A DNA stretch of 59,902 nt, counting the filler, from Platydemus manokwari (taxonomy: Eukaryota): assembly GCA_037951405.1 (NCBI GenBank). It is 6 parts of 6 records of this genome, joined end to end, with 100 filler letters (N's around TTAATTAATTAA, not from the genome) between each part and the next. Parts side by side here need not be neighbours in the genome. Positions count along the whole stretch, not along the records: positions 31,000 to 41,263 come from JBBMOY011151993.1; 5 more parts are not named here. The stretch is one strand, 5' to 3'. The notes under the pieces are model-generated. The model ran no database searches, had not been told where the DNA came from, and saw only the letters and a program-made list of their open reading frames with translations. Each line of letters opens with the position of its first letter. Positions within the stretch are counted from its first letter, which is position 1. Below are positions 38,673-39,968 of the stretch, one piece after another. A program made the position numbers and the translations under genes.

Positions 38673-39968
38673 TTAACACGAGAGAAGTTCCAACAATTCA
38701 TGTTTGACATTGTTTTGAAAGTGAAAATCGTGATAATTCTCCATTTCAAAGTTTTCCAATAGTTCACGTCGATAATGGTAGATATTAAGTAATTCTAAAT
38801 TTTTGAGAAAATCTTTCATTAAAGCATCATTTGAGACAAGCCTAAGAAAATTGTTTTCTAAGAATTCCCTTAATTGATGACTGAATTCCTTAAAAAAGCT
38901 TTCATCATCCAGCTTTTGCACACACTGTGATTTCACAGAACTTACTCCCGAATTGATTAGTGTGTCATTTCCACGAACTCCGCAACAATCATGTCTTAGT
39001 TGGTTGATAAAAGTGCTATCTTCTTTGTAAAATGTTTTAATTTCATATGTTTGTCTTTTGATTTCTTCTTCTAGGGCTTCTTCAGGTAATTTTACAATAA
39101 ATAACTTACTAACATCGTTGATTTTACATTCACCTAGATCTATGGGACAAATCGAATTTTTATTTTCTATTGCATTGTAACAATTTATGCATAACTTGTG
39201 GTGGCAAACATTGAATTCTACGTGATCTTTATTATCGACTGTATTTAAACAACCTAAACAGTTATTTTTATTTATTCTACTCGATGAATAAAATTGTTGA
39301 AATTCATTGATCTCGAAATAGCATTGAGACATCGCTTCAAGTCTCAAACATTTTTCCAGCGCTATTCTCTGACATGTTACCTTTAGTAACTCGACATAGT
39401 AACCGATTAACTCGCATGTTGTAGAATATTCATTAATGCAAAACGCGTTGATGTATTTCGTCAAATATTTTGGAAGGTGGCATTTTGAAATGATGATATT
39501 CTTTTCCAATGTACATATTTCTTCAAAGTATTTCTCATAGCTTAATTCTTTTAGTAAGTATTCTAAATTCAATTTCTCACCCTTTACACGAGTCTCAGTT
39601 TTGTATTGATCAAATCGTTCAACAAGAATTTTAGTAAATAACGACAAATATTCATCATGATGATTCGATAAAACCGTTAGCTTTCTCAAAATGTCGTTTC
39701 CTTTTTTTCTTTGTGTGTTTAGATATGATATAACGAACGAATTATAGTCTTTTTGATGAATTTCATCGTTTACCAGTTCACAAATGTTTGTGCGTTCTAA
39801 CCTATCCATTGGACATTTATATTTGATTGATAAGGTTTTTGTGAAATACATATTTATTATGCATGCTGAACAGAAAGCATGTTTCATTATACATTCCGGA
39901 AATCCGAATAGTGATGAATCATTAACGAAGCATATCGAGCAGCACTTAACTGAATCCATTTGTCCCAT
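38673..39968 (-). CDS. Intronless 431-aa protein with two RING fingers (putative E3 ubiquitin ligase)
   Basis: Uninterrupted ATG-TAA ORF. RING1 is CSIC..CIMKHAFCSAC..CPMDR and RING2 is CLGC..CHHKLCINC..CPID; both end in CPxD and each is followed by a helical region. Confidence 0.88.
   Translation of the reverse strand: MGQMDSVKCCSICFVNDSSLFGFPECIMKHAFCSACIINMYFTKTLSIKYKCPMDRLERTNICELVNDEIHQKDYNSFVISYLNTQRKKGNDILRKLTVLSNHHDEYLSLFTKILVERFDQYKTETRVKGEKLNLEYLLKELSYEKYFEEICTLEKNIIISKCHLPKYLTKYINAFCINEYSTTCELIGYYVELLKVTCQRIALEKCLRLEAMSQCYFEINEFQQFYSSSRINKNNCLGCLNTVDNKDHVEFNVCHHKLCINCYNAIENKNSICPIDLGECKINDVSKLFIVKLPEEALEEEIKRQTYEIKTFYKEDSTFINQLRHDCCGVRGNDTLINSGVSSVKSQCVQKLDDESFFKEFSHQLREFLENNFLRLVSNDALMKDFLKNLELLNIYHYRRELLENFEMENYHDFHFQNNVKHELLELLSC

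What the first reader, a model, noticed from the sequence alone, without database searches (positions are those of the whole stretch)
38673..39968. Intronless protein built from two tandem [CPxD-type RING + helical domain] units: candidate undescribed E3 family
Seen: two RINGs about 228 aa apart, both ending CPxD. The following regions also echo each other (KELSYEKYFEEI vs QKLDDESFFKEF; ELLKVTCQRIALEKCLRLEAMSQCYF vs ELLNIYHYRRELLENFEMENYHDFHF), which points to an old whole-unit duplication. There is no IBR, B-box, MATH or TM segment, and no intron, while neighbouring genes are intron-rich. Established: CPxD RINGs occur in TRAF6, Roquin and RNF41, and many RINGs act as dimers. Inference: a single-chain pseudo-dimeric ligase with an unrecognised helical domain, perhaps retroposed or of viral/mobile origin.
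Basis: partly seen in the sequence, partly recalled or inferred. Interest (0 to 1): 0.7.

Follow-up and report, generated by a model that had tools for sequence, protein, structure and literature searches.

The report
Lineage-restricted double-RING ubiquitin ligase
This animal gene encodes one protein with two zinc "RING" fingers, of which only the first keeps the residues needed to tag other proteins with ubiquitin, so it likely works as a ligase with one active and one helper finger, a layout already known in plants; its helical parts match no known family, and the proposed internal duplication is not statistically supported.

Summary
The 431-aa single-exon ORF (38673-39968, minus strand) is real and carries two divergent RING fingers, both of the C3HC3D (CPxD) type, 222-227 aa apart. 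The claimed whole-unit duplication is not supported. These tests have low power: they also miss the RING-RING kinship. The two RINGs are unequal. RING1 keeps the E2-contact Ile and the linchpin Arg; RING2 has Gly and Leu there. The best reading is a lineage-restricted E3 ligase with one active and one accessory RING, working like plant PRT1 (activity and RING pairing untested). It is not an RBR, TRAF, TRIM or LONRF protein. Only two fragmentary homologues exist among 1.84 billion representatives. Nothing points to a viral source. One unexpected lead: a language-model search reads the first helical region of a homologue as retrotransposon Gag capsid-like, but profile tests with 13 natural Gags were not significant (about 13% likely). 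Interest is moderate.

The parts
38673..39968 (-). Single-exon coding sequence, 431 aa plus stop (P0001)
   Evidence: in-frame stop two codons before the ATG; codon-usage correlation with pooled neighbours 0.60, inside their own range 0.39-0.77
39801..39941 (-). RING1, residues 10-55 plus linchpin R56: C10 C13 C26 H30 C33 C36 C52 D55, with I12, P53 and R56 in the E2-contact positions
   Evidence: Pfam zf-C3HC4 E 6e-4, sub-threshold; nearest solved sequences TRAF6 and RAD18 RINGs, E 0.75-0.92, not significant; residue mapping
39282..39773 (-). Helical region 1, residues 66-229, no family assigned; residues 71-175 are 49% identical to homologue P0002
   Evidence: predicted helical at low confidence; no Pfam hit under E 0.04
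39507..39578 (-). Residues 131-154: stretch that aligns, without significance, to the Gag major-homology-region position
   Evidence: hhalign E 0.12, probability 0.5%; best HMM domain of P0002 falls on the equivalent stretch at 1.0 bit
39135..39260 (-). RING2, residues 237-277 plus L278: C237 C240 C255 H257 C260 C263 C274 D277, with G239 and L278 where active RINGs have Ile and Arg/Lys
   Evidence: Pfam zf-RING_4 E 7e-5 and zf-RING_2 E 1.5e-4, sub-threshold; mapping; the C-P-x-D-L ending is kept in homologue P0003
38679..39095 (-). Helical region 2, residues 292-430, predicted three-helix bundle, no family assigned; residues 269-418 are 35-38% identical to homologue P0003
   Evidence: block pLDDT 65-80 at 291-320 and 52-72 at 351-400; no Pfam hit under E 0.7
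38628..38633 (-). AATAAA about 40 nt after the stop codon: candidate polyadenylation signal (inferred; the hexamer is common in this AT-rich DNA)
   Evidence: One search lists 7 such hexamers in 37901-38673

Best explanation
A host animal gene encodes a 431-aa protein with two CPxD-type RING fingers, each followed by a predicted helical region, that likely acts as a ubiquitin E3 ligase in which RING1 is predicted to bind the ubiquitin-loaded E2 and RING2 likely serves as a non-catalytic partner. Shown: the ORF, both ligand sets, the E2-contact residues of RING1 (I12, P53, R56), their replacement in RING2 (G239, L278), and conservation of both helical regions in diverged homologues. Inferred: RING1 holds E2~ubiquitin in the closed, reactive state through R56; RING2 stabilises or folds back onto RING1 as in PRT1 or BRCA1-BARD1 (pairing about 35% likely, untested); the helical regions position the RINGs or bind substrate. 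The family is lineage-restricted and fast-evolving. The data do not tell whether the two halves arose by an ancient duplication or by fusion of two different RING genes.
For: Eight ligand positions in each RING match the C3HC3D type, defined by Asp at ligand 8 (PMC3166285, passages). RING1 has Ile before ligand 2, as TRAF6 and RAD18 do in the alignments, and Arg after ligand 8. BRCA1 I26 defines the E2 site and K65 is the linchpin (PMC9910797, passages); most RINGs have His/Lys/Arg at the linchpin, and linchpin-deficient TRIM6/22 are inactive (PMC11992055, passages). RING2 has Gly and Leu where ARK2C has Ile and Arg (alignment), and the Leu is shared with homologue P0003. PRT1 is a precedent for a canonical plus a non-canonical RING in one chain, with RING1 essential (PMC12370974, passages). 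Homologues at 49% and 35-38% identity and host-like codon use indicate a maintained gene. Neighbours are animal genes: UNC79 E 3e-9, TRPC, TRAF, BSD.
Against: All RING hits are below Pfam's cut-offs. RING1 has a longer than usual gap (3 residues) between ligands 3 and 4 and Met at the usual Trp position (the Trp is noted in PMC3166285). Neither homologue covers RING1 or most of RING2, so conservation of the ligands is unverified. Some active RINGs lack a basic linchpin (PMC11992055), and TRAF6 has Asn there, so RING2 may be active. AlphaFold did not fold either RING (mean pLDDT 37-38). In PRT1 the RINGs are joined by a disordered stretch of about 80 residues; here about 180 mostly helical residues lie between them.
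Confidence: 0.55

Rival explanations
1. One reading: the gene is an old tandem duplication of one [RING + helical domain] unit, giving a pseudo-symmetric single-chain dimer.
For: Both RINGs are of the uncommon C3HC3D type (5 of 139 Drosophila RINGs; PMC3166285). Both are followed, about 17-19 residues later, by helical regions that one low-confidence model builds as bundles at 76-181 and 290-416. A post-hoc piece (66-135 against 278-431) reaches 16-57 of 2000 shuffles.
Against: No significant similarity. The echoes lie off the RING register. The post-hoc piece is in a third register (offset about 290) and is not reproduced with the homologues: 321-1602 of 2000 shuffles for the three cross pairs. 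The RINGs are no more alike than their Cys/His pattern dictates: 1102 of 3000 Cys/His-fixed shuffles. Ligand spacings differ. No DNA repeat lies in register.
Confidence: 0.2
2. One or both helical regions are a decayed LTR-retrotransposon Gag capsid domain, domesticated and fused to RING fingers; the protein would bind retroelement capsids or self-assemble and mark them with ubiquitin.
For: ESM Atlas feature search with homologue P0002: best score 0.93, with 22 of 30 hits in Retrotrans_gag clusters. With five Gag-related families skipped, the next named hits are DUF1759, SCAN, Gag_p30 and Fv1 at 0.79-0.86 (that these are Gag-derived is recalled). hhalign places residues 111-157 on the major-homology-region stretch. 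Pairwise, residues 290-431 against the L007 Gag are matched by 1 of 10000 shuffles, and 66-180 against the L008 Gag by 10 of 10000.
Against: Only 122 of 256 features are shared, against 170 or more for 9 in 10 true family members, and 4-10 in 100 shuffled proteins reach 0.9. A profile of 13 natural Gags gives P0002 1.5 bits (234 of 2000 shuffles) and region 2 1.4 bits (308 of 2000). hhalign E 0.12-0.49. The two pairwise hits are the best of 60 pairs, use a different register for region 1, are not seen with P0003, and fall to E 0.12 or worse with composition-adjusted BLAST. No Pfam Gag hit. Power is limited: 2 of 9 held-out Gag stretches were also missed.
Confidence: 0.13
3. Both fingers are zinc-binding scaffolds without ligase activity (a pseudoligase), or the gene is drifting.
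For: Both RINGs are sub-threshold. Both homologues are short fragments on contigs of 1039 and 873 bp, which could be broken copies. RING pseudoligases exist (PMC11992055).
Against: The ORF is intact, and RING1 keeps all eight ligand positions plus Ile, Pro and Arg at the E2 face.
Confidence: 0.09
4. The gene was taken from a virus or is cargo of a mobile element.
For: Single coding exon; RING ligases are common in large DNA viruses (recalled); high-depth repeats lie just upstream at 40.2-41.2 kb.
Against: No relative in IMG/VR for P0001, P0003 or P0002 or in PHROGs at E below 0.02. GC3 of 0.30 and codon use fall within the neighbours' range. No long terminal or direct repeat flanks the gene. 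It sits tail-to-tail with a host BSD gene, 850 bp away.
Confidence: 0.03

Closest known systems
Arabidopsis PRT1 (single-chain tandem-RING E3; PMC12370974, passages read)
   Same: Two RINGs in one chain, one canonical and one non-canonical; RING1 is the essential one. This is the model for how the protein would work.
   Different: PRT1 has a ZZ substrate domain and a disordered linker of about 80 aa. This protein has no ZZ hit and long helical regions, and no sequence relationship to PRT1 appeared in the searches.
C3HC3D RINGs such as TRAF6 and Roquin (PMC3166285, passages read)
   Same: Asp at the eighth ligand (C-P-x-D) in both fingers; TRAF6 is the nearest solved sequence to RING1, at a non-significant E 0.75.
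   Different: Those proteins have one RING plus zf-TRAF/MATH or RNA-binding domains; none is found here.
BRCA1-BARD1-type active/inactive RING pairs and TRIM pseudoligases (PMC9910797, PMC11992055, passages read)
   Same: One RING with the Ile26-equivalent and a basic linchpin, one without.
   Different: Here both lie in one polypeptide, with no BRCT, ankyrin or B-box domains.
Human LONRF2 (two RINGs plus LON substrate-binding domain; PMC10226518, one passage read)
   Same: Two RING domains separated by a long region.
   Different: No LON domain hit.
Ty3/gypsy Gag capsid (Pfam PF03732) and Gag-derived host proteins
   Same: Language-model features of homologue P0002 and a hydrophobic spacing like the major homology region.
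   Different: No significant profile match, and no zinc knuckle, protease, RT, integrase or LTR at the locus.

Membership tests
C3HC3D RING finger | Eight ligand positions C-C-C-H-C-C-C-D with Pro after ligand 7 | tested here: met
   Both fingers; type defined in PMC3166285; Pfam hits sub-threshold
Active RING E3 | Ile before ligand 2 and basic linchpin after ligand 8: RING1 | tested here: met
   I12 and R56
Active RING E3 | Ile before ligand 2 and basic linchpin after ligand 8: RING2 | tested here: not met
   G239 and L278; Leu also in P0003
Active RING E3 | Ubiquitin transfer in vitro | not testable with these tools
   Needs an assay
RBR ligases | IBR zinc domain between the RINGs | tested here: not met
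   No IBR hit at E up to 10; C163 and H164 are both Asn in homologue P0002
RBR ligases | Second finger of the Rcat type | tested here: not met
   RING2 has cross-brace spacing; the HOIP match is 27 residues at E above 1, with Phe in place of one HOIP Cys; the Rcat pattern itself is recalled
TRAF | zf-TRAF fingers and MATH domain | tested here: not met
   Found in the neighbouring gene at 15.3-17.2 kb but not in P0001
TRIM | B-box after the RING | tested here: not met
   No B-box hit
LONRF | LON substrate-binding domain | tested here: not met
   No hit
PRT1-type single-chain RING dimer | Canonical plus non-canonical RING in one chain | tested here: met
   One search compared with PMC12370974
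PRT1-type single-chain RING dimer | Intramolecular RING1-RING2 contact | not testable with these tools
   AlphaFold models did not fold the RINGs; no complex prediction was obtained
PRT1 family | C-terminal ZZ domain | tested here: not met
   No ZZ hit
Whole-unit tandem repeat | Significant similarity of the two helical regions in the RING register | tested here: inconclusive
   Not significant, but the same tests miss the RING-RING homology
Gag capsid-derived protein | Significant profile match to Retrotrans_gag / Ty3 capsid | tested here: inconclusive
   Atlas 0.93 with 122 of 256 features; HMM and hhalign not significant; 2 of 9 held-out Gag stretches also missed
Gag capsid-derived protein | Capsid fold | tested here: inconclusive
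   Models are low-confidence
Retrogene | Intron-bearing parent gene, poly(A) remnant, target-site duplication | tested here: inconclusive
   No genome held and no paralogue in the window; no flanking direct repeat; old retrogenes lose these marks

The most novel reading that the evidence does not exclude
The protein is a domesticated LTR-retrotransposon Gag capsid domain fused behind a RING finger, present twice in tandem. It would be an animal E3 ligase that uses a capsid-derived module to recognise or co-assemble with retroelement particles and ubiquitylate them, joining Fv1-like decoy recognition to TRIM5-like ligase activity.
Probability: 0.13. Interest if true: 0.8.

Novelty: new variant of a known kind. 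Interest (0 to 1): 0.4.

Why it matters
As best read, it adds an animal candidate to the short list of single-chain tandem-RING ligases, for which PRT1 is called the prototype (PMC12370974), with a clean test: one finger predicted active, one inactive. That is of specialist interest only. If the Gag-capsid lead held, it would be a natural RING-capsid fusion, a possible anti-retrotransposon ligase. Two full-text searches listed one review each, neither of which announces such a fusion in its title or the start of its abstract.

Tried and rejected
Homologue searches: word-indexed search of P0001 gave none among 5731 candidates of 237-755 aa and none among 464 shorter ones; longer proteins were not searched with P0001. 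The shorter search missed P0002 and P0003, so it cannot exclude one-unit homologues. The third search, with the neighbouring TRAF exon, found none among 543, so the animal group was not determined. JGI metagenomes: no relative for P0001 or P0003. NCBIfam: none. PDB sequences: nothing significant for P0001, its parts or profiles. Folds: two AlphaFold runs at mean pLDDT 38 and 37; Foldseek found nothing at E 0.001 or below in PDB or BFVD; VIA-align best Z 8.4 and 6.3, generic helical bundles only. These blanks do not show a new fold. Complex prediction of the two halves was not available, so there is no verdict on RING pairing. Expression: no RNA holder listed, which is no evidence either way. 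The one run holding the stretch has a contig across 37959-40196 with no differences; it may be the window's own source and its depth is not a copy number. No genome is held for this window, so synteny and paralogues were not examined. RING2 as a copy of the neighbouring TRAF RING: 761 of 3000 Cys/His-fixed shuffles score as high, rejected as unsupported. The planned shuffle-controlled profile-profile test against Gag was lost with the script machine; plain hhalign was used instead. L015, L004 and L016 (close to L013 by eye) and L005, L010, L030 (fragmented) were left out of the Gag profile; L006 and L014 were not detected by the seed. Earlier scan findings: none by sequence, none bearing on this gene. 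Literature searches for this architecture listed nothing that describes it. Supplements were not read; Table S1 of PMC8807557 (393 planarian RING/U-box transcripts, 17 without a human match) could hold a relative if the animal is a planarian.

Full report
Observation. The window is AT-rich animal DNA (GC 12-35% per kb). It holds an UNC79-like exon (E 3e-9 to human UNC79) and TRPC, TRAF and BSD-domain genes. The animal group was not determined; a flatworm is my guess from composition and gene content and comes from no call. The ORF at 38673-39968 (-) is real: 431 aa without a stop, an in-frame stop two codons before the ATG, and a chance probability of about 9e-18. Its GC3 (0.30) and codon use (correlation 0.60 with pooled neighbours, whose own values are 0.39-0.77) are host-like. 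The BSD and TRAF neighbours are split into exons, but a second uninterrupted frame of 400 codons lies at 1289-2488, so a long single exon is not unique here.

The two RINGs. Pfam finds two RING-like stretches, 10-54 and 235-276, all below the curated cut-offs. Each has eight ligand positions ending C-P-x-D. This is the C3HC3D type, which holds 5 of 139 Drosophila RINGs, among them TRAF6 and Roquin (PMC3166285, passages). They lie 227 (first Cys) and 222 (CPxD) residues apart. No IBR, B-box, zf-TRAF, MATH, ZZ or LON domain was found at E up to 10, and there is no TM segment. The protein is therefore not filed under RBR, TRAF, TRIM, LONRF or the PRT1 family.

RING1 has Ile12 before the second ligand, Pro53, and Arg56 directly after the last ligand; RING2 has Gly239 and Leu278 at these sites. 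In BRCA1, Ile26 defines the E2 site and Lys65 is the linchpin (PMC9910797, passages). Most RINGs carry His, Lys or Arg at the linchpin; TRIM6 and TRIM22, which lack it, are inactive, though exceptions exist (PMC11992055, passages). The Leu after CPxD is shared with a homologue. The inference is one active and one accessory RING. Arabidopsis PRT1 is the precedent: a canonical RING1 and a non-canonical RING2 form an intramolecular dimer needed for full activity (PMC12370974, passages). Human LONRF2 also has two RINGs (PMC10226518, one passage). A single-chain RING pair is thus a known mechanism. Whether it occurs here was not testable.

Range. phmmer over 1.84 billion representatives gave 2 hits at E up to 0.001: P0002 (109 aa, 49% over residues 71-175) and P0003 (165 aa, 38% over 269-418). 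Both are unnamed singletons on contigs of 1039 and 873 bp. They show that both helical regions are conserved in at least one other gene, and they are colinear with only short indels, which argues against hidden in-frame introns there. They do not cover RING1 or most of RING2. No relative was found in IMG/VR or PHROGs, and no terminal or direct repeat flanks the gene, so a viral or mobile origin is unsupported.

The claimed repeat. Half against half, 269 of 2000 shuffles score as high; helical against helical, 423 of 2000. Three matrices and all cross-pairs with the homologues give the same picture, while the true homologue pairs give 0 of 2000. Two-row profiles give 33 and 77 of 150, and hhalign gives 0.1% and 0.35%. 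The only nominal signal, residues 66-135 against region 2 at 16-57 of 2000, was picked, lies at an offset near 290, and is not reproduced with the homologues. These tests have little power: they do not detect the kinship of the two RINGs either (283 of 3000 full shuffles). In favour of a duplication remain the shared uncommon RING type and a low-confidence model with a helical bundle after each RING (76-181 and 290-416). The duplication is unproven, not refuted.

An unexpected lead. The ESM Atlas holds P0002. Its nearest feature clusters are retrotransposon Gag (score 0.93; 22 of 30 hits). With five Gag-related families skipped, DUF1759, SCAN, Gag_p30 and Fv1 follow at 0.79-0.86. The shared-feature count, 122 of 256, is below the 170 typical of true members, and 4-10 in 100 shuffled proteins reach 0.9. 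To test the lead I fetched natural LTR-retrotransposon loci; Pfam confirmed Retrotrans_gag in 7 of 12 stretches scanned. Of 60 pairwise comparisons two stood out: region 2 against the L007 Gag (1 of 10000 shuffles) and region 1 against the L008 Gag (10 of 10000). Both fall on the major homology region and what follows it. Both lose significance under composition-adjusted BLAST, and P0003 does not repeat the first (479 of 500 shuffles). A profile of 13 Gags scores P0002 at 1.5 bits (234 of 2000 shuffles), region 2 at 1.4 bits (308 of 2000) and region 1 at -0.6 bits (1436 of 2000); its six-row seed had picked up 7 of 9 held-out Gag stretches. hhalign aligns residues 111-157 to the major-homology-region stretch at E 0.12, a level like that of the missed Gag stretch of L014 (E 0.16). 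Combining by eye, the two helical regions would thread on Gag about 240 residues apart, near the RING offset; this is my inference, not a computed result. The lead is kept at about 13%.

Verdict. A genuine, narrowly distributed animal gene for a two-RING protein, likely an E3 ligase with an active RING1 and an accessory RING2, with helical regions of unassigned family (confidence 0.55). It works like PRT1 if the pairing holds but is not a member of any family tested. Novelty: new variant of a known kind. Interest 0.4; 0.8 if the Gag-capsid reading proves true. Planarian papers on RING and TRAF expansions (PMC8807557 and PMC7586133, passages) give context only if the animal is a planarian; their supplements were not read.

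Noticed in passing
window 15295-17221 (+): TRAF gene (RING, zf-TRAF, MATH; best PDB match TRAF6, E 2e-11) whose RING also ends C-P-x-D and has Cys in place of the usual His at ligand 4.
   Followed up: partly
window about 10062-11894 and 20094-20393 (-): UNC79-like exons (one confirmed) and further minus-strand exon-like frames lie on both sides of the TRAF gene, which may be nested in an intron on the opposite strand; the 20-kb exon was not assigned.
   Followed up: no
window 34255-37294 (+): The BSD-domain gene seems to use a GC-AG intron of about 3.0 kb: the frame continues cleanly across a GC donor and an AG acceptor (inferred, no RNA).
   Followed up: partly
window 1289-2440 (-): Uninterrupted ORF of about 384 aa from its ATG with no Pfam match better than E 0.01; acidic, Ser-rich N-terminal part.
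   Followed up: no
window 54525-57912 (+): Exons of a RING/PHD-like finger gene (zf-RING_11 E 4e-5) with a second Cys-rich exon at 57589-57912; family not determined.
   Followed up: no
window 49896-50456 (+): TRPC channel exon (TRP_2 E 4e-29 plus an ankyrin repeat).
   Followed up: no
window 40200-41200: Repeated DNA just upstream of the gene: many divergent contigs pile up here, with summed depth in the hundreds to thousands.
   Followed up: no
window 39150-39177: One short contig of run X1 aligns inside RING2 with 7 differences: a diverged paralogue fragment or a chance AT-rich match.
   Followed up: no
L011:2083-3282 (-): A natural LTR-retrotransposon Gag with an N-terminal SAP domain (E 2e-8), an example of a Gag carrying an extra host-type domain in front of the capsid.
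   Followed up: no
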